A stretch of DNA of 39,004 nt from the sequence record OQ031074; one strand, 5' to 3'. Shown here piece after piece: positions 1 through 38,873 of this stretch. The notes under the pieces were generated by a model, which was not told the DNA's origin, ran no database searches, and was given only the letters and a program-made list of their open reading frames with translations. The DNA comes from Shigella phage SFP21A. The position numbers and the translations under genes are program-made. Positions within the stretch are counted from its first letter, which is position 1. Each line of letters opens with the position of its first letter.

Positions 1-1050
1 ATGGCAAACGTTCCGGGTCAGAAAATTGGTGCAGACCAAGGTAAGGGCAAATCTAGTGCAGACCAGCTCGCACTGTTCCTTAAGGTCTTCGCTGGTGAAG
101 TCCTGACAGCTTTCACTCGCCGCTCTGTTACCGCTGACAAACATATTGTCCGCACCATTCAGAATGGTAAGTCCGCACAGTTCCCGGTAATGGGTCGCAC
201 CTCAGGTGTGTATCTTGCTCCCGGTGAGCGCCTGAGCGATAAGCGCAAGGGTATCAAACACACTGAGAAGGTTATCACCATTGATGGTCTGCTGACCGCT
301 GACGTGATGATTTTCGACATCGAAGACGCCATGAACCACTATGACGTGGCTGGCGAGTATTCCAACCAGCTCGGTGAGGCTCTGGCTATCGCTGCTGATG
401 GCGCGGTACTGGCTGAGATGGCGATTCTGTGTAACCTCCAGGCTGCATCCGACGAGAACATCGCTGGTCTGGGCAAGGCGTCCGTTCTGGAAGTTGGTAC
501 TAAAGCAGACCTGAACACTCCAGCCAAGCTTGGTGAAGCTATCATCGGTCAACTGACCATCGCACGTGCGAAGCTGACTGCCAACTACGTGCCTGCTGGC
601 GACCGCTACTTCTACACCACCCCTGACAACTACTCCGCGATTCTGGCGGCTCTGATGCCTAACGCTGCTAACTACGCTGCGCTGATTGACCCTGAGACGG
701 GCAACATCCGTAACGTAATGGGCTTCGTTGTGGTAGAAGTTCCTCACCTGACTCAGGGCGGTGCTGGTGAAACTCGTGGTGACGATGGTATCTCTATCGC
801 TTCCGGTCAGAAACACGCATTCCCGGCTACCGCCAGCTCTACCGTTAAGGTTGCTCTGGACAACGTTGTGGGCCTGTTCTCTCACCGTTCTGCTGTCGGT
901 ACTGTTAAGCTGCGCGACTTGGCGCTGGAACGTGACCGCGACGTCGATGCTCAGGGCGACCTGATTGTTGGTAAGTACGCTATGGGTCACGGCGGTCTGC
1001 GTCCAGAAGCGGCAGGCGCACTGGTTTTCAAGGCAGCGTCAGCGGGTTAA
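1..1050 (+). CDS. 10A: major capsid protein (T7 gp10A homolog)
   Basis: 349-aa ORF with T7-capsid blocks in the translation (KSAQFPV, HTEKVITIDGLLTADV, MPNAANYAALIDPE, HRSAVGTVKLRDLALER, KYAMGHGGLRPEAAG). Its RBS AGGAGA is at the window end (~38991-38996), so the start codon sits at the permutation point. Confidence 0.95.
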   Translation: MANVPGQKIGADQGKGKSSADQLALFLKVFAGEVLTAFTRRSVTADKHIVRTIQNGKSAQFPVMGRTSGVYLAPGERLSDKRKGIKHTEKVITIDGLLTADVMIFDIEDAMNHYDVAGEYSNQLGEALAIAADGAVLAEMAILCNLQAASDENIAGLGKASVLEVGTKADLNTPAKLGEAIIGQLTIARAKLTANYVPAGDRYFYTTPDNYSAILAALMPNAANYAALIDPETGNIRNVMGFVVVEVPHLTQGGAGETRGDDGISIASGQKHAFPATASSTVKVALDNVVGLFSHRSAVGTVKLRDLALERDRDVDAQGDLIVGKYAMGHGGLRPEAAGALVFKAASAG

Positions 1051-11690: not shown

Positions 11691-14198
<2,508 letters not shown>

Positions 14199-15253: not shown

Positions 15254-17013
15254 GTCAAGACTTAGCGGCGCGTCAGGCGCTTATGACTGCCCGTATGAAG
15301 GCAGACTTCGTGTTCTTCCTGTTCGTTCTGTGGAAAGCTCTGTCACTTCCTGTTCCGACTCGCTGTCAGATTGACATGGCGAAGAAGCTATCGGCTGGGG
15401 ACAACAGGCGTTTCATCTTACAGGCGTTCCGTGGTATCGGGAAGTCCTTCATTACGTGTGCCTTCGTGGTCTGGAAGCTGTGGAATAACCCGGACTTGAA
15501 GTTCATGATTGTGTCGGCCTCAAAGGAACGAGCCGATGCTAACTCCATCTTCATCAAGCGTATCATAGACCTGATGCCTCAGCTCCAAGAGTTGAAGCCT
15601 AAGCAGGGACAGCGAGACGCAGTAATCAGCTTTGACGTAGGGCCTGCCAAGCCTGACCACTCTCCTTCGGTTAAGTCCGTTGGTATCACTGGTCAGTTAA
15701 CTGGTAGTCGTGCTGACATCCTGATTGCCGATGACGTAGAGGTCCCCGGTAACTCAGCTACTCAGGCAGCGCGTGACCGACTGTCCGAGCTGGTGAAGGA
15801 GTTCGACGCAATCCTGAAGCCGGGTGGTACGGTTATCTATCTGGGTACGCCTCAGACCGAGATGACCCTATACCGCCAGCTTGAGGGTCGTGGTTATTCG
15901 ACTACCATCTGGCCTGCTCGCTACCCACGGGATGAGAAGGACTGGAAGTCTTACGGCGACCGTCTGGCTCCTATGCTTCAGGCCGAGCTTGAGTCTGACC
16001 CTGAGGGCTACTACTGGAGACCTACCGATGAGGTTCGCTTCGATGATGAGGACCTGAAGGAACGTGAGCTGTCCTACGGTAAGGCTGGCTTCGCTCTACA
16101 GTTCATGCTCAACCCGAACCTAGGGGATGCCGAGAAGTACCCTCTGAAGCTGCGTGACCTTATCGTAGCGGACTTGGACCCTGAGTCTAGCCCTATGGTC
16201 TACCAGTGGCTGCCGAACCTTCAGAACAAGCGTGATGACGTTCCTAACGTGGGACTCATGGGTGATTCCTACCACACGTATCAGACTGTAGGTTCTGCCT
16301 TCAGTTCGTACACCCAGAAGATTCTGGTCATTGACCCAAGTGGTCGAGGTAAGGATGAGACCGGATATGCGGTTCTGTACCAGCTCAACGGCTACATCTT
16401 CGTGATGGAAGCTGGTGGTATGCGAGGAGGCTACGAGGACTCTACGCTGGAAGCTCTGGCGAAGATTGGTCGCAAGTGGAAGATTAACGAGTACGTCATT
16501 GAGGGTAACTTCGGTGATGGCATGTATCTCGAATTATTCAAGCCTGTAGCGGCCCGTATTCACCCGGCAGCAGTTACCGAGGTCAAGAGTAAGGGTCAGA
16601 AGGAGCTACGCATCTGCGACGTTCTGGAGCCTATCATGGGGTCTCACCGACTCATCGTGAACTCCTCGACCATTGTGTCTGACTACCAGACTGCCACTGA
16701 TAAGGATGGAGTCCGCAACCCTATCTACTCACTGTTCTATCAGATGACCCGTATCAGCCGTGAACGTGGGGCCTTGGCTCACGATGACCGACTTGATGCT
16801 CTGGCTATCGGTGTGCAGTTCTTCGTAGAGTCTATGGCGAAGGATGCCATAAAGGGACAGCGTGAAGTAACCGAGGAGTGGCTGGAGGAACAGATGGAGG
16901 ACCCACGGAAAGGCTTTAAGTCCATCGAGACTGACTATTGGGACAATGGGGTCCGGGTCCAGTTCAATACGGATGATGACTTGGGCTTAGGGTCCTACGT
17001 ACAGTTCCACTAA
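15250..17013 (+). CDS. 19: terminase large subunit (gp19)
   Basis: 587 aa; near-identical blocks to T7 gp19 ([109 protein letters not shown]). Apparent TTG start 9 nt after GGAGG. Confidence 0.95.
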
Positions 17014-17106
17014 CCTAATGAATACCTACGCATGAAATCTGCATGTATAAGCAGTAAGTAGTGCGTTAGGTATCTCTCGTAACTTAATGATTCTAAAGGG
17101 AAATGG

Positions 17107-17129
17107 ACTTAACTATCACTATAGGGAAG
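17107..17129 (+). promoter_or_regulatory. phage RNAP promoter after gene 19 (phi-OR-like), +1 about 17124
   Basis: ACTTAACTATCACTATAGGGAAG; position equivalent to T7 phi-OR near the right genome end. Confidence 0.75.
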
Positions 17130-17303
17130 ACCCCCGGTTGCTTATAGTAAAGACTCAATGAATAAGCATATGCACACTTTATGCAAGACCTTAGGAGGCA
17201 GACTCCTGAGTTCTTACCTAAGGTTAACACCGATGGAGAGGGTGATTGTAATCATCACACCCTCATAACTTAAGTAGACCCTAAGCGACAGGAGGTATGT
17301 AGC

Positions 17304-17462
17304 ATGGGTAAGACCAAAGCTGTTCTCAAAGCTCTGGCGACCAATAGAGCTACATACAGGTTTCTTGCTGCTGTTCTACTTGCTGCTGGCGTTACTGCTG
17401 GAAGTCAGTGGGCCTGGTGGGTCGAGACTCTCGTATGTACTCTGGTGTCTGAGTGTCATTAA
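17304..17462 (+). CDS. small hydrophobic protein (gene 19.5 position)
   Basis: 52-aa ORF (MGKTKAVLKALATNRATYRFLAAVLLAAGVTAG..) with strong RBS GGAGGT 7 nt upstream; downstream of the phi-OR-like promoter; last ORF before the repeat region. Confidence 0.45.
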   Translation: MGKTKAVLKALATNRATYRFLAAVLLAAGVTAGSQWAWWVETLVCTLVSECH

Positions 17463-17489
17463 TGCCATCATGGTAACAATCAACGAAAG

Positions 17490-18060
17490 ACGGACCTAAG
17501 GTCAGTTCATAGCTGACGCTACTCTACTGACCTTAGCTACTGTAGTCAAGGACTTTAGGTAATACCCTAATAGAAGCTCACTTAGGGTCATCCTACTCAC
17601 TGGTCTACCCTAGTGTCGCCTGACCTACGGTCCTTGACCTACAGTGGCTGAGGCCTACAGTAGGGACGATGAGTTTTGGACCAAAAGTTTGAGACCACAT
17701 CTCACAGTTCAAGAACCTCAAGTCTCCCCATAGGGTCACTTCCAGTCAGACCAAAGGCCACCACCCCTAGACCTTCGGTCTAAACCTCAAGTCATTGACC
17801 CGAAGTCGACCCGAAGTCTGGACCGATAGGGCCTATATCTTGTGGTTGGGACGATGGGTCGGGACTATATGTTGTGTCTCCGAGTCCCTATCTGTATCAG
17901 CCTCAAGTCATCACCTTCAGTCTCACTACCTACAGTCATCGACCATCGGTAAAGCCGCTACCTACAGTCATCGACCTACAGTCAGTAGACACCATGTTGA
18001 CCTACAGTTTATCAGAGTCCTAAGGTCTAGACTCACAGGTTATCACATCCGGTCCGTTTA
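17490..18060. repeat. non-coding terminal region: short direct/inverted repeat arrays flanking a putative collapsed direct terminal repeat (about 17700-17889)
   Basis: Inverted repeat CCTAAGGTCAG / CTGACCTTAGG (17495-17537). Repeated CCTACAGT/GACCTACAGT units (17620-17660, 17930-18015), CCTCAAGTC x3, tandem GACCCGAAGTC x2 (17800-17822), 19-bp CTACCTACAGTCATCGACC x2 (17926-17975). 17700-17889 begins TCTCACAG.. and ends ..TCCCT, like the T7 160-bp terminal repeat as recalled. Confidence 0.5.
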
Positions 18061-18210
18061 GCAGTCAGAGACCATAGCTGACTAGGGTTATTAGTTAGTG
18101 TCTTGCTAACTGGACTCTCATTATCCACAGTCCAGACTTAAAGTCAATCATCTGTAGTCATCCTTATATAGTCATTGGACTACTGTATAAATTACCATGA
18201 TAAATAGTTG

Positions 18211-18240
18211 TTGACAGTGGGTCTAACTTTTGGTTTAATA
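18211..18240 (+). promoter_or_regulatory. host sigma70-type early promoter (T7 A1-like)
   Basis: TTGACA (18211-18216), 17-nt spacer, TTTAAT (18234-18239). Surrounding sequence resembles the T7 A1 region (GTCTAAC..). Confidence 0.65.
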
Positions 18241-18354
18241 GCTTCCGTCAACACGACACGGCAAACACCGGATAGTGAAGACGCCGGGTCGGTCCGGTTA
18301 AGTAGTCAGCCTGTAAGACATACGAAAAACAGGCAACCGACAGAAAGAAAGTAG

Positions 18355-18385
18355 TTGACAAGCAGTAACGACTTAAAGTAGTATG
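18355..18385 (+). promoter_or_regulatory. host sigma70-type early promoter (T7 A2/A3-like)
   Basis: TTGACA (18355-18360), ~17-18 nt spacer, -10-like GTAGTAT, then ATGTACCACATCGAAACGACAGTGAG, very similar to the transcribed region of T7 A3 as recalled. Confidence 0.65.
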
Positions 18386-18535
18386 TACCACATCGAAACG
18401 ACAGTGAGGCCTAACACTGAAACAGGCTAGCGAGGCGACGACAGCCAAGCGAATGCTCTTTAACAATCTGGATAAACTCTTAATGTGCGCCGATAGTAAG
18501 CGATTAACTCAAGAGACTTGTTGGCTACTGCGGGT

Positions 18536-18578
18536 CAGGCTCAAGATGAGCGCCTAAGGTCTCTTTATGATAATCACT
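18536..18578 (+). ncRNA. putative RNase III site upstream of gene 0.3 (R0.3-like)
   Basis: GGCTCAAGATGAGCGCCTAAGGTCTCTTTATGATAATCACT resembles the T7 R0.3 region (CTCAAGG..CCCTTTATGATATTCACT) and the window's own hairpin motif. Confidence 0.4.
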
Positions 18579-18597
18579 CACTTAAAGGATACACATC

Positions 18598-19050
18598 ATG
18601 ATTTACACTAACGAACCAGCTAACGTCTTCTATGTGCTCGTGTCAGCCGCTCGTGCTGGACTGTCAGACATAGTGAACATGGGCCGTCAGTTAGACCTTA
18701 AGGCACTGCTACAAGCTGAGCCAGACTACTACGGTGTGCTCGAATGCACTGGGCTTACAGGATGCTACCGCGAGGAAGGGCAAGAGGTCGCCACTGAGGA
18801 GAGAACATATCGTGTGCGCTGTGAGTCCAAAGCTCAGGCTATCAACGTTGCGCGGCTGGCCTGCAATGACTTTGAGCAAGACTGCGTGATGGTCTACAAG
18901 TCTCAGACTCACACGGCTGGCCTGATGTTCTGCAAAGGTCTGGATGGCTACCGCACTGAGCGCCTGCACGGGTCATTCCAGCAAGTCGATGCGCCCAAGG
19001 GTGAATGCTTCACGAAAGACGCTGAAGGACGCTTCTGGGAGGTTGTGTAA
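18598..19050 (+). CDS. 0.3: S-adenosyl-L-methionine hydrolase/lyase (T3 gene 0.3-type anti-restriction protein)
   Basis: 150 aa; N-terminus MIYTNEPANVFYVLVSA.. and blocks TGCYRE, RVRCESKAQAINVARLACN, QDCVMVYKSQTHTAGLMF match the T3 SAMase as recalled; first gene after the sigma70 promoters; RBS AAAGGA. Confidence 0.75.
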   Translation: MIYTNEPANVFYVLVSAARAGLSDIVNMGRQLDLKALLQAEPDYYGVLECTGLTGCYREEGQEVATEERTYRVRCESKAQAINVARLACNDFEQDCVMVYKSQTHTAGLMFCKGLDGYRTERLHGSFQQVDAPKGECFTKDAEGRFWEVV

Positions 19051-19051
19051 G

Positions 19052-19255
19052 ATGGTTAACTCATACCCTAATCACATCAAGCCATGGATAACGGTTGATA
19101 TTGAGACCGTGGGCGACTCCAAGTTTGTGACCATACGGTCAAGCATACACGTTAACAAGGAGTTCAAGCTACCACACAGCTACAGCCTGAGCTGGGGAGA
19201 CTGGGAGATTCTGCGTGATGGCGCTTTCCTCAAGTACGCAAGGAGGTTCTACTGA
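19052..19255 (+). CDS. hypothetical early protein
   Basis: 67-aa ORF starting ATG 19052 immediately after the SAMase stop (MVNSYPNHIKPWITVDIE..); early-region position; no recognisable motif. Confidence 0.4.
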   Translation: MVNSYPNHIKPWITVDIETVGDSKFVTIRSSIHVNKEFKLPHSYSLSWGDWEILRDGAFLKYARRFY

Positions 19256-19380
19256 TGTACACGATAAGCTACAGCAGCGAGCAGGCGTTCTATGATGGTC
19301 TCGTCGAGCTGATGAAGCGCGGGGCCTGCTACACGGCTAACCACCATGCGCTAACCATAACGCTGACAGGCGGGTACTGA
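19255..19380 (+). CDS. hypothetical small early protein
   Basis: 41-aa ORF (MYTISYSSEQAFYDGLVELMKRGACYTANHHALTITLTGGY); start overlaps the upstream stop (TGATG); RBS AGGAGG at 19241-19246. Confidence 0.35.
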   Translation: MYTISYSSEQAFYDGLVELMKRGACYTANHHALTITLTGGY

Positions 19381-37988: not shown

Positions 37989-38873
37989 ATGTCCCAATCA
38001 GTTTATGCCGAGTTCGGCGTTAGCCCTAATGCAATCACTGGCTCCGTTGAGGACCTGAACGAACACCAGCGGTCTATGCTCGAACAGGACGTAGCAGTTC
38101 GCGATGGCGATGATGCTATTACCTTCAAGCAACTGGAAGACGAGAACGACTCGACTACCGAAGAAGACGAAAACGTCGACGAGACTGAAGGTGATGATGA
38201 TACCGAAGGCAACGACGATGAGTCTGATACCGAAGGTGATGACCAAGAGTTTGTCGAACTGGGTGAAACTCCTAAAGAGCTGACCGAAAGTGTCACCGCT
38301 CTGAACGAGAACGAAGCTGCCTTCGACGACATGGTTTCTGCTGCTGTAGAGGCTGGCAAGGTCACTGCTGATGACATCACCGCTATTAAGGCCGAATACG
38401 CCTCTAAAGGTGAGCTGTCCGAGGCATCCTATGCTAAGCTGGCTGAAGCTGGTTACACAAAGCGTTTCGTCGATTCATTCGTCCGTGGTCAGGAAGCTCT
38501 GGCTGAGCAGTATGCTGCTGGTGTGGTTCGCTACGCTGGTGGGGCTGAGCAGTTTAACCGCATCCTGTCTCACCTTGAGGCTAACGATAAGTCAACCAAG
38601 GAAGCCCTTGAGTCTGCAATCATCCGTAAGGACCTTGCGACCGCTAAGGCCATCCTGAATCTGGCTGGTCGTAACCTCGGTAAGACCCGTGGAGTTGCCC
38701 CTCAGCGAACCTTGACTACTCAAGGTAAGCCAGCGGTATCCGCACCGAAGGTCCAGACCGAAGGTTTCAGCTCCAAGGCCGATATGGTCAAGGCGATGAG
38801 TGACCCACGCTACCTGCGTGACGCGAAGTACACAATGGAGGTACGCGCTAAGGTTGCAGCGTCTAGTCTGTAA
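37989..38873 (+). CDS. 9: capsid assembly (scaffold) protein (gp9)
   Basis: 294 aa from ATG 37989 (RBS AAAGGAGA); blocks VYAEFGV, EHQRSMLEQDVAVRDGDDAI, FVELGETPKEL, LSEASYAKLAEAGYTK.FVDSFVRGQEALAEQY, RKDLATAKAILNLAG, KAMSDPRY as in T7 gp9; acidic central region. Confidence 0.93.
   Translation: MSQSVYAEFGVSPNAITGSVEDLNEHQRSMLEQDVAVRDGDDAITFKQLEDENDSTTEEDENVDETEGDDDTEGNDDESDTEGDDQEFVELGETPKELTESVTALNENEAAFDDMVSAAVEAGKVTADDITAIKAEYASKGELSEASYAKLAEAGYTKRFVDSFVRGQEALAEQYAAGVVRYAGGAEQFNRILSHLEANDKSTKEALESAIIRKDLATAKAILNLAGRNLGKTRGVAPQRTLTTQGKPAVSAPKVQTEGFSSKADMVKAMSDPRYLRDAKYTMEVRAKVAASSL

What the first reader, a model, noticed from the sequence alone, without database searches (positions are those of the whole stretch)
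17470..18150. Collapsed genome ends: putative direct terminal repeat flanked by short-repeat arrays
This ~680-bp stretch has no convincing ORF and is packed with short repeats: an inverted pair CCTAAGGTCAG/CTGACCTTAGG, multiple (GA)CCTACAGT units, CCTCAAGTC x3, tandem GACCCGAAGTC x2, and a 19-bp CTACCTACAGTCATCGACC x2. The segment 17700-17889 starts TCTCACAG.. and contains CCCCATAGGG, GACCTTCGGT and ..TCCCTATCTGT, matching the organisation of the T7 terminal repeat as recalled. The physical left end of the virion DNA is therefore probably near 17700, with one copy of the terminal repeat collapsed in this circular-style representation.
Basis: partly seen in the sequence, partly recalled or inferred. 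Interest (0 to 1): 0.5.

Follow-up and report, generated by a model that had tools for sequence, protein, structure and literature searches.

The report
Collapsed T7-like phage genome ends
This stretch is where the two ends of a T7-like phage chromosome were joined by the assembler, with one copy of its 190-bp terminal repeat left in the middle; that is ordinary and well known, but most of the short repeats around it turn out to be copies of a palindromic word (GAC-N5-GTC) that is unexpectedly over-abundant across the genomes of this phage genus.

Summary
The window is a complete Kayfunavirus (K1F-like, T7 relative) genome, circularly permuted to open at the capsid gene ATG. Window 17700-17889 is a single copy of the direct terminal repeat (DTR). 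Its two boundaries coincide with the DTR boundaries of four relatives deposited with both repeat copies (K1F 178 bp, IMM-002 189, Ro45lw 190, SH5 190/191); SH5's ends were measured by run-off sequencing of virion DNA. The sequence left of 17700 is the right-end unique DNA (terminase, phiOR-type promoter, gene 19.5). The sequence right of 17889 is the left-end unique DNA (host-type promoters, gene 0.3). This arrangement is the T7 'concatemer junction', including the ...GAGTCCCT|ATCTGT boundary shared with T7 and T3. The short repeats are far above chance (16 motif hits in 681 bp against 0.8 expected) and parallel the T7 arrays that flank its repeat. The finding itself is already known biology. 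One unexpected side result: most repeat units are instances of GAC-N5-GTC. That word occurs 74 times in the genome (about 20 expected). The excess survives synonymous-codon permutation (z about 12), is confined to the Kayfunavirus clade, and is unexplained.

The parts
15283..17013 (+). Terminase large subunit (gene 19 homologue), the last large gene of the genetic right end
   Evidence: PHROG phrog_38 terminase large subunit, E 1.6e-131; 64% identical to T7 gp19 and 93% to K1F
17110..17130 (+). Phage-RNA-polymerase promoter in the position of T7 phiOR (TAACTATCACTATAGGGAAGA)
   Evidence: One of 9 + strand copies of TCACTATAGGRA (0.26 expected). It lies between gene 19 and gene 19.5, as phiOR does in T7
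17304..17462 (+). Gene 19.5 homologue (52 aa), the last gene before the right end
   Evidence: phrog_2193, E 2e-21. The homologous ORFs are annotated gp19.5 in PE3-1 and IMM-002
17490..17560 (.). Highly conserved noncoding block containing the perfect 11-nt inverted repeat 17496-17506 / 17526-17536 (19-nt loop), centred 184 bp left of the repeat; candidate cis-acting processing or packaging element
   Evidence: the repeat finder I10. As ssDNA it folds at -11.2 kcal/mol, z -3.5, with 0 of 200 shuffles as good. In 13 relatives, 0.91-0.98 of bases are identical, higher than in most of gene 19.5
17620..17661 (+). Right-end short-repeat cluster (GACCTACGGTC, GACCTACAGT, GCCTACAGT), the counterpart of the T7 repeats left of the right-end terminal repeat
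   Evidence: T7 has related CCTAAGG/CCTAAAG/CCTATAG units in the same position
17665..17699 (+). Last 35 bp of right-end unique DNA abutting the repeat; the left-end cleavage site lies at 17699|17700
   Evidence: Identical to the 35 bp that precede the right-end repeat copy of K1F; 0.93-0.97 conserved across 13 relatives
17700..17889 (+). Direct terminal repeat, 190 bp, single (collapsed) copy; inferred virion DNA = 39,004 + 190 = 39,194 bp
   Evidence: Repeat boundaries of K1F, Ro45lw, IMM-002 and SH5 map to 17700 and 17889 (K1F 17888). Terminal repeats are annotated in Ro45lw and SH5. There is only one copy in the window. Landmarks are shared with T7 and T3
17768..17782 (.). Small hairpin inside the repeat (TAGACC-TTC-GGTCTA), homologous to the T7 hairpin AAAGTCAACC-TTC-GGTTGACCTT
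   Evidence: Fold z -3.0; T7 inverted repeat I7 at 63-85; ACCTTCGGT is aligned in T7 and T3
17797..17818 (+). Perfect tandem duplication GACCCGAAGTC x2 inside the repeat
   Evidence: TRF period 11, 2.0 copies, 100% match
17889..17896 (+). Concatemer-junction motif TATCTGTA at the right boundary of the repeat; counterpart of the T7 class II pause/termination signal (H + ATCTGTT), matching 6 of 7 conserved bases
   Evidence: T7 and T3 read ...GTGTCCCT|ATCTGTT. PE3-1 annotates the homologous CTATCTGT as 'concatemeric junction'. The class II motif is described in bioRxiv 10.64898/2026.02.12.705533
17899..18029 (+). Left-end short-repeat array: about 8 units of type NACCYNMRGTC spaced 13-26 bp apart (including the 19-mer x2), the counterpart of the T7 CCTAAAG array right of its left repeat
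   Evidence: the T7 array lies at 175-341 with 13-bp spacing. Unit number and sequence vary among relatives
18355..18384 (+). Sigma-70-type early promoter candidate (TTGACA-18-TAGTAT); a second TTGACA at 18211 precedes a conserved block. Position corresponds to T7/T3 A1-A3
   Evidence: Consensus scan, 10 of 12; T7 and T3 annotate A1-A3 in the same interval. Consensus match only
18598..19050 (+). Gene 0.3, first gene of the genetic left end (T3-type SAM hydrolase family)
   Evidence: phrog_2226, E 6.4e-47; annotated S-adenosyl-L-methionine hydrolase in the closest relatives

Best explanation
The region is the concatemer junction of a T7-like (Kayfunavirus) phage genome. The genome was assembled or deposited in circular style, so right-end unique DNA (up to 17699), one copy of the 190-bp direct terminal repeat (17700-17889) and left-end unique DNA (from 17890) are contiguous. 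Shown here: the gene order, the homology, the boundary positions, the single copy and the permutation. Inferred from T7/T3 biology: virion DNA is linear, starts at 17700, ends at 17889 and carries the 190 bp at both ends, giving 39,194 bp. Replication produces head-to-tail concatemers with exactly the arrangement seen in the window. Terminase (gp18/gp19) recognises pac signals in and around the repeat and cuts at 17699|17700 and 17889|17890, and the missing repeat copy is made by DNA synthesis during processing. Transcription from the phiOR-type promoter (17110) runs through the junction, and in T7 it pauses at the class II signal that sits exactly at the right repeat boundary; here that signal is TATCTGTA. 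The flanking arrays correspond to the T7 short-repeat arrays, whose role is not established. The conserved inverted repeat 184 bp left of the repeat is a candidate for the fold-back (hairpin) intermediate described for T7, but that assignment is inference.
For: The region lies between terminase/gene 19.5 and gene 0.3. K1F positions 1-35 are identical to window 17700-17734, and the 35 bp before K1F's right repeat are identical to 17665-17699. All four two-copy relatives map their repeat boundaries to 17700 and 17889, with 'terminal repeat' annotations and experimentally measured ends for SH5 (PMC4925675). The ...GTCYCT|ATCTGT rule holds in T7, T3 and the Kayfunavirus relatives examined, and 11 IMG/VR contigs end exactly on it. 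There is a single copy in the window. The window's end-to-start join is contiguous in linear relatives. The short repeats are enriched about 20-fold locally, and T7 has the same layout. Conservation peaks at the cleavage site and at the inverted repeat. Literature: a concatemer holds one repeat copy and the second is synthesised, and DTRs are often lost or placed mid-contig by assemblers (PMC10438801); pacB/pacC recognition and cutting (PMC9860248); the concatemer-junction class II pause/terminator; a hairpin intermediate containing the repeat (PMC4281155).
Against: There are no reads or virion DNA data for this phage, so the ends are inferred by homology (91-94% identity in the repeat to Ro45lw, IMM-002 and SFP20). 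The exact boundary could be off by a base or two: K1F's record gives 178 bp against 179 in the literature, and SH5's gives 191 against 190. The junction motif differs from the 'strictly conserved' T7 class II motif at its seventh base (ATCTGTA against ATCTGTT), so pausing by this phage's polymerase is unproven. The role assigned to the inverted repeat rests partly on my recollection of the T7 hairpin literature; the only source read here mentions the hairpin without giving its position.
Confidence: 0.93

Rival explanations
1. The genome ends are real but lie elsewhere, or the repeat has a different length in this phage, so that 17700-17889 is only approximately the repeat.
For: Repeat length varies within the genus (178-191 bp). 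The interior of the repeat is the least conserved part of the region (0.57-0.84). Deposited boundaries differ by 1 nt from published values.
Against: Both boundary sequences are the best-conserved parts of the region (0.93-0.99 at the left site, 0.87 at the right) and are shared even with T7 and T3. All four two-copy relatives agree to within 1 nt.
Confidence: 0.04
2. The phage packages by a headful or cos mechanism, and the region is simply a noncoding regulatory or origin region with no terminal repeat.
For: The window itself shows no duplication. T7-type phiOR/phiOL regions also act as secondary replication origins (my knowledge of the T7 literature, not tested here), so an origin function may coexist.
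Against: The terminase, gene order and junction sequence are those of phages with demonstrated short DTRs. The collapse of a DTR to one copy is the expected assembly behaviour (PMC10438801).
Confidence: 0.02
3. The region encodes small proteins (for example the 88-aa ORF 17795-18061), as several relatives annotate.
For: Automated annotations in relatives place 'hypothetical protein' CDSs here.
Against: There is no family hit for the longest ORF. The ORFs cross the repeat boundary. Relatives differ by many indels and by unit-number changes. Names attached in IMM-002 ('50S ribosomal protein L31', 'AC4 protein', 'ATPase 8') are evident mis-calls. The end-determined, curated records (T7, T3, K1F, Ro45lw, SH5) annotate no gene here.
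Confidence: 0.01

Closest known systems
Bacteriophage T7 concatemer junction (160-bp terminal repeat, flanking short-repeat arrays, phiOR, class II pause site)
   Same: Same position between gene 19.5 and gene 0.3. Same first bases (TCTCACAGT), CCCCATAG, an internal ACCTTCGGT hairpin, and a right boundary ...GTCCCT|ATCTGT. Arrays of a short unit lie on both sides and inside the repeat, with a phage promoter upstream.
   Different: The repeat is 190 bp rather than 160. The array unit is (G/N)ACCTACAGTC-like instead of CCTAAAG, with less regular spacing (13-26 bp against 13). The junction motif is ATCTGTA rather than ATCTGTT. In this lineage the unit belongs to a genome-wide over-represented word (GAC-N5-GTC), which T7 lacks.
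Kayfunavirus direct terminal repeats (K1F 178/179 bp; SH4/SH5 190 bp; Ro45lw 190 bp; IMM-002 189 bp)
   Same: Homologous sequence with boundaries at the same aligned positions. The flanks on both sides are near-identical, including the conserved inverted repeat and the arrays.
   Different: This genome is not identical to any deposited one (best 93-96%) and is represented with one repeat copy in mid-sequence. The interior of the repeat and the number of array units differ. Gene 0.3 is a SAM hydrolase here but Ocr-like in K1F and Ro45lw.
Bacteriophage T3 terminal repeat (231 bp)
   Same: It starts TCTCATAGTTCAAGAACC..., very close to the window, and ends ...GTGTCCCT|ATCTGTT.
   Different: It is longer, has CCTAAAG-type units, and belongs to a different genus.

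Membership tests
T7-like (Studiervirinae) short direct terminal repeat / concatemer junction | Lies between the last right-end genes (19, 19.5) and the first left-end gene (0.3) | tested here: met
   Terminase 15283-17013, gp19.5 17304-17462, gene 0.3 18598-19050
T7-like (Studiervirinae) short direct terminal repeat / concatemer junction | Repeat begins with the conserved left-end sequence TCTCAYAGT | tested here: met
   Window 17700 reads TCTCACAGTTCAAGAACC; the first 35 nt are identical to K1F position 1 onward; shared with T7 and T3
T7-like (Studiervirinae) short direct terminal repeat / concatemer junction | Repeat ends ...G(A/T)GTC(C/T)CT and is followed by ATCTGT | tested here: met
   Window reads ...GAGTCCCT|ATCTGTA at 17889|17890. 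The same holds in T7, T3, K1F, Ro45lw, IMM-002 and SH5, and 11 contig ends stop on it
T7-like (Studiervirinae) short direct terminal repeat / concatemer junction | Boundaries coincide with ends determined on virion DNA of relatives | tested here: met
   SH5 (run-off sequencing, PMC4925675) and three other two-copy records map to 17700 and 17889
T7-like (Studiervirinae) short direct terminal repeat / concatemer junction | The sequence is physically present at both ends of this phage's virion DNA | not testable with these tools
   No reads or virion DNA are available; the window holds one copy
T7-like (Studiervirinae) short direct terminal repeat / concatemer junction | Arrays of short repeats adjoin the repeat on both sides | tested here: met
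   16 units in 681 bp against 0.8 expected; CCTACAGT 10 against 1.5; T7 has the same layout
T7 RNA polymerase class II pause/termination signal (concatemer-junction type) | Seven-base strictly conserved motif ATCTGTT preceded by A, C or T | tested here: not met
   The window has T+ATCTGTA (6 of 7 bases). The five Kayfunavirus junctions aligned, and PE3-1, also read ATCTGTA, whereas T7 and T3 read ATCTGTT. HATCTGTW is not enriched genome-wide (8 against 6.6)
T7 RNA polymerase class II pause/termination signal (concatemer-junction type) | Located exactly at the right boundary of the terminal repeat, downstream of a phiOR-type promoter | tested here: met
   17889-17896; promoter at 17110-17130 on the same strand; PE3-1 annotation 'concatemeric junction'
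T7 RNA polymerase class II pause/termination signal (concatemer-junction type) | The cognate polymerase pauses or terminates there | not testable with these tools
   Needs in vitro transcription with this phage's RNA polymerase

The most novel reading that the evidence does not exclude
The short-repeat arrays around the terminal repeat are dense clusters of a Kayfunavirus-specific cis-element, the palindromic word GAC-N5-GTC (weakly GAC-Y-N-W-N-R-GTC). This word is maintained by selection at the DNA level throughout the genome (74 copies; 48 in genes against 12.7 expected under synonymous-codon permutation). It would be read by an unidentified two-fold-symmetric factor acting in packaging, DNA condensation or replication. 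The companion word GAC-N3-GTC is completely avoided. If so, the long-unexplained T7-type terminal arrays would, in this genus, be the high-density end of a genome-wide site system.
Probability: 0.3. Interest if true: 0.65.

Novelty: already known. Interest (0 to 1): 0.25.

Why it matters
For the finding itself, the value is practical. The record should be re-opened at 17700 and given a second 190-bp repeat (true genome 39,194 bp), and nothing in 17470-18150 should be annotated as a gene. Many public T7-like records share this defect: 22 of the 36 contigs that run to a contig end stop at arbitrary positions, not at or within 4 nt of a true genome end. Beyond that, the role of the repeat arrays next to T7-type terminal repeats has never been settled. 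In Kayfunavirus the array unit is an instance of a genome-wide, DNA-level-selected, clade-specific palindromic word. That gives a concrete handle for experiments: a defined 11-bp site, 74 copies, and a commercial enzyme (AhdI) that cuts it.

Tried and rejected
1. Coding potential of the region: the longest ORF has no family, so this was rejected. 2. Known RNA families: no Rfam match at E up to 1 over 16900-18700. 3. Intrinsic terminators: none found. 4. Codon usage as an explanation for the motif excess: rejected by codon shuffling, by synonymous permutation and by same-phase spacer controls N2/N8/N11. 5. The idea that the excess is specific to the degenerate array unit ACCYNMRGT: replaced by the sharper GAC-N5-GTC after related classes also scored high. 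6. A host origin for the word bias: a 50-kb E. coli K-12 sample shows neither the N5 excess nor the N3 avoidance. 7. Whether T7's own unit CCTAAAG is comparably enriched inside T7: only 6 internal + strand copies against 2.4 expected, so it is not comparable. 8. A clade-specific DNA-binding protein: ten window proteins were scanned (eight shared with K1F and absent from T7, plus the small terminase and a T3 gene 1.05-like protein). None has a recognisable DNA-binding domain; most are 'unknown function'. 9. Literature: no paper in the searchable library combines GACNNNNNGTC with phage, and a search for K1F / overrepresented / palindrome found nothing relevant. 10. The position of the T7 hairpin intermediate could not be retrieved from open papers, so the link to the inverted repeat at 17496-17536 remains inference.

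Full report
WHAT THE WINDOW IS. The 39,004-bp window is a complete genome of a T7-like phage of the genus Kayfunavirus (K1F-like). The junction region is 95.7% identical to Shigella phage SFPH2 and 91-92% to SFP20, Enterobacter phage EP1 and Cronobacter phage GW1. No deposited genome is identical; the best matches over 25 kb are 93-96%. The window opens at the ATG of the major capsid gene (phrog_267). Its last 400 bases joined to its first 400 bases align as one uninterrupted piece (100% coverage, 99.4% identity) in the middle of linear, end-determined genomes such as Citrobacter phage SH5, at the gene 9/gene 10 boundary. The window is therefore a circular-style permutation of a linear genome.

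THE OBSERVATION. CCTACAGT occurs 10 times in the window against 1.5 expected from dinucleotide-preserving shuffles, and six of these copies lie in the region, all on the + strand. A degenerate form of the unit, ACCYNMRGT, occurs 16 times in 17470-18150 against 0.8 expected from the genome's own background rate (P about 1e-15), 13 of them on the + strand. Two transcription slips need correcting. The second arm of the inverted pair ends in C, so the perfect inverted repeat is CTAAGGTCAGT / ACTGACCTTAG (17496-17506 / 17526-17536). TCCCTATCTGT straddles the repeat boundary rather than lying inside it. The absence of a credible gene is also confirmed. The longest ORF has no family, relatives differ by many indels, and no Rfam family matches.

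WHAT IT IS. Upstream lie the large terminase (15283-17013), a phage-polymerase promoter at 17110-17130 in the position of T7 phiOR, and a gene 19.5 homologue (17304-17462). Downstream lie sigma-70-type promoter candidates and gene 0.3 (18598-19050, SAM-hydrolase family). This is the genetic right end of a T7-like genome followed directly by its left end.

K1F's deposited sequence begins TCTCACAGTTCAAGAACCTCAAGTCTCCCCATAGG, identical to window 17700-17734. The 35 bases preceding K1F's right-end repeat copy are identical to window 17665-17699. I reconstructed concatemer junctions (right unique, one repeat, left unique) for four Kayfunavirus genomes that carry both repeat copies: K1F 178 bp, IMM-002 189 bp, Ro45lw 190 bp and SH5 191 bp in the records. 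I then aligned them with the window. All four repeat starts map to 17700, and the ends map to 17889 (K1F 17888). Ro45lw and SH5 annotate these stretches as terminal repeats. SH5's ends were determined by run-off Sanger sequencing from virion DNA, giving 190 bp (PMC4925675). Ro45lw's 190 bp is reported in PMC9866566.

T7 (160 bp) and T3 (231 bp, annotated) end ...GTGTCCCT and continue ATCTGTT. The window reads ...GAGTCCCT|ATCTGTA at 17889|17890. PE3-1 annotates the homologous CTATCTGT as 'concatemeric junction'. Thirty-six of the IMG/VR relative loci run to a contig end. Eleven of those stop exactly on ...YCYCT with TCTCAYAG 148-193 nt upstream, three more are within 1-4 nt, and the remaining 22 end at arbitrary positions. 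The first 25 bases of the repeat occur once in the window. One copy of a 190-bp direct terminal repeat therefore sits at 17700-17889, and the virion chromosome is inferred to be 39,194 bp.

HOW IT WORKS. Shown here: the anatomy, the boundaries and the conservation. Inferred from T7/T3 knowledge: concatemers formed during replication carry one repeat between successive genomes, terminase cuts at specific sites, and the second repeat copy is synthesised (PMC10438801). The small terminase recognises pacB and the large subunit cuts at pacC (PMC9860248). A hairpin DNA species containing the repeat has been seen in T7 infections and is taken to support primase-initiated duplication (PMC4281155). The T7 'concatemer junction' is a class II pause/termination signal for T7 RNA polymerase, with a seven-base conserved core preceded by A, C or T (bioRxiv 10.64898/2026.02.12.705533).

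In the window the corresponding motif, TATCTGTA, matches six of the seven core bases. The five Kayfunavirus junctions aligned, and PE3-1, also read ATCTGTA, while T7 and T3 read ATCTGTT. I therefore file it as positionally equivalent but not as a demonstrated class II signal.

Conservation across 13 relatives peaks at the left cleavage site (17660-17720, 0.93-0.99) and at the inverted-repeat block (17520-17560, 0.97-0.98). The latter is better conserved than most of gene 19.5. The interior of the repeat (0.57-0.84) and the left-end array (0.60-0.88) vary, including in unit number. The inverted repeat folds as single-stranded DNA at -11.2 kcal/mol (z -3.5). It is centred 184 bp left of the repeat, which makes it a reasonable candidate for the fold-back site. 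I could not retrieve the position of the T7 hairpin from open literature, so this remains inference. T7 shows the same overall architecture: units inside the repeat, a 13-bp-spaced CCTAAAG array to its right, related units to the left of the right-end copy, and a small hairpin inside the repeat.

COMPARISON AND NOVELTY. This is an ordinary, already described element, namely the collapsed direct terminal repeat / concatemer junction of a T7-like phage, in a genome that is a new but close relative of described Kayfunavirus phages. What remains untested is the physical state of this phage's own DNA. The published SH4/SH5 run-off primers match the window (exact at 17368-17387; one mismatch at 18059-18078), so the decisive experiment is trivial.

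SIDE RESULT (not part of the finding as given). The degenerate array unit was also over-represented outside the region: 46 hits against about 10 expected. Codon shuffling did not explain this. Decomposing it showed that the underlying word is the palindromic pattern GAC-N5-GTC. It occurs 74 times in the window, while spacers of 0-2, 4 and 7-12 give 7-18, N6 gives 35 and N3 gives 0. Spacers N2, N8 and N11 have the same codon phase as N5 and give only 12, 12 and 18.

Third-order Markov simulations expect 19.9 +/- 4.5. K1F has 80 copies against 17.2 +/- 4.3, and T7 has 14 against 10.6. Within 33 genes, permuting synonymous codons while keeping every protein sequence gives 12.7 +/- 3.0 against 48 observed (z 11.9). 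GAC-N3-GTC is 0 against 12.7 (z -4.3), and GTC-N2-GAC is 40 against 15.5 (z 7.3).

In 80 terminase-anchored loci from IMG/VR, all 22 with at least 81% terminase identity to the window show an N5-to-control-spacer ratio of 4.3-8.0. Nearly all loci with 76% identity or less have a ratio near 1. GAC-N3-GTC is near-absent across the whole group.

Between the window and K1F, 40 of 61 aligned sites are retained (66%) against 41% for control spacers (Fisher p 0.0035). The fixed bases are 93% identical against 82% for the spacer bases. There are also 21 window-only and 21 K1F-only sites, which indicates turnover. A 50-kb E. coli K-12 sample shows neither bias.

Ten sites lie within 17493-18290, and most array units are instances or near-instances of the word: GACCTAAGGTC, GACCTACGGTC, GACCTTCGGTC, GACCCGAAGTC x2, GACGATGGGTC, GACCTACAGTC and GACTTAAAGTC. 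I found no report of this in the searchable literature. I also found no recognisable DNA-binding protein among the clade-specific genes. The most economical reading is a binding site for a two-fold-symmetric factor. A relation to the GTC recognition triplet of T7-type primase is another possibility; that triplet is from my own knowledge and was not tested here. Neither reading was tested.

VERDICT. The finding is confirmed and explained, and it is already known biology, so it scores low on its own. The overall interest is raised slightly by the unexplained clade-specific GAC-N5-GTC excess, which ties the terminal arrays to a genome-wide sequence feature.

Noticed in passing
whole window (74 sites; 17493, 17622, 17770, 17797, 17808, 17850, 17973, 18135, 18213 and 18280 around the junction): The palindromic word GAC-N5-GTC (the AhdI site) is about 4-fold over-represented: 74 against 19.9 +/- 4.5 expected. 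In genes it is 48 against 12.7 under synonymous-codon permutation (z 11.9). The excess is shared by K1F and by all 22 loci with at least 81% terminase identity, and is absent from T7, from most more distant T7-like loci and from an E. coli sample. Sites are retained between the window and K1F more often than control-spacer words (66% against 41%). No explanation found.
   Followed up: partly
whole window; K1F (L022); most of L023-L102: GAC-N3-GTC is completely absent from the window and K1F (about 13-20 expected; z -4.3 against synonymous permutation). It occurs 0-3 times in each of the T7-like loci examined and once in T7. An E. coli 50-kb sample has 6. This may reflect restriction avoidance or a site that is harmful to the phage.
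   Followed up: partly
whole window: GTC-N2-GAC (40 in genes against 15.5 expected, z 7.3) and GAC-N6-GTC (32 against 17, z 4.0) are also over-represented. Their relation to the N5 word is unknown.
   Followed up: no
whole window: Many 6-bp palindromes are entirely absent despite 12-20 expected copies: CTGCAG, CAGCTG, TGATCA, GGTACC, ACCGGT, TGGCCA, GAATTC, AGATCT, and also GGTNACC. This is the classic restriction-site avoidance of T7-like phages.
   Followed up: no
17490-17560: A noncoding block containing a perfect 11-nt inverted repeat is more conserved across 13 relatives (0.91-0.98) than most of the adjacent gene 19.5 (0.63-0.84 over 17300-17419). This implies a cis-acting role. It is unannotated in every record examined.
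   Followed up: partly
L009 205-470 and L010 238-855 (Escherichia phage IMM-002, MF630921.1): The public record annotates implausible CDSs inside the noncoding junction and terminal repeat: 'glycine cleavage system protein H', 'restriction modification system DNA specificity subunit', 'ATPase 8', '50S ribosomal protein L31' and 'AC4 protein'. Several other relatives carry 'hypothetical protein' calls there. These are likely annotation artefacts.
   Followed up: no
window 1-1050 versus 17300-18600 and 18598-19380: Mosaicism. The capsid region is 99.4% identical to Citrobacter phage SH5 and Cronobacter phage Dev2, while the junction is closest to Shigella phage SFPH2 (95.7%). Gene 0.3 is a T3-type SAM hydrolase with no K1F or T7 counterpart, whereas K1F and Ro45lw carry Ocr-like genes in that position.
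   Followed up: no
11700-14198: In the tail fibre/spike ORF (832 aa), only the N-terminal part (about 190-250 aa) is similar to K1F and T7. The rest has no counterpart in either, which suggests a swapped receptor-binding module.
   Followed up: no
38198-38250: A 27-bp tandem repeat (2.0 copies, 80% match, TGATACCGAAGGCAACGACCAAGAGTC) lies inside the scaffolding-protein gene region.
   Followed up: no
L075 (IMGVR_UViG_3300020045_000942), L073, L074: A few distant loci (65-70% terminase identity; L075 has only 43% GC) also show a raised GAC-N5-GTC ratio (4.0, 2.8, 2.1). The trait may therefore exist outside Kayfunavirus or have arisen more than once.
   Followed up: no
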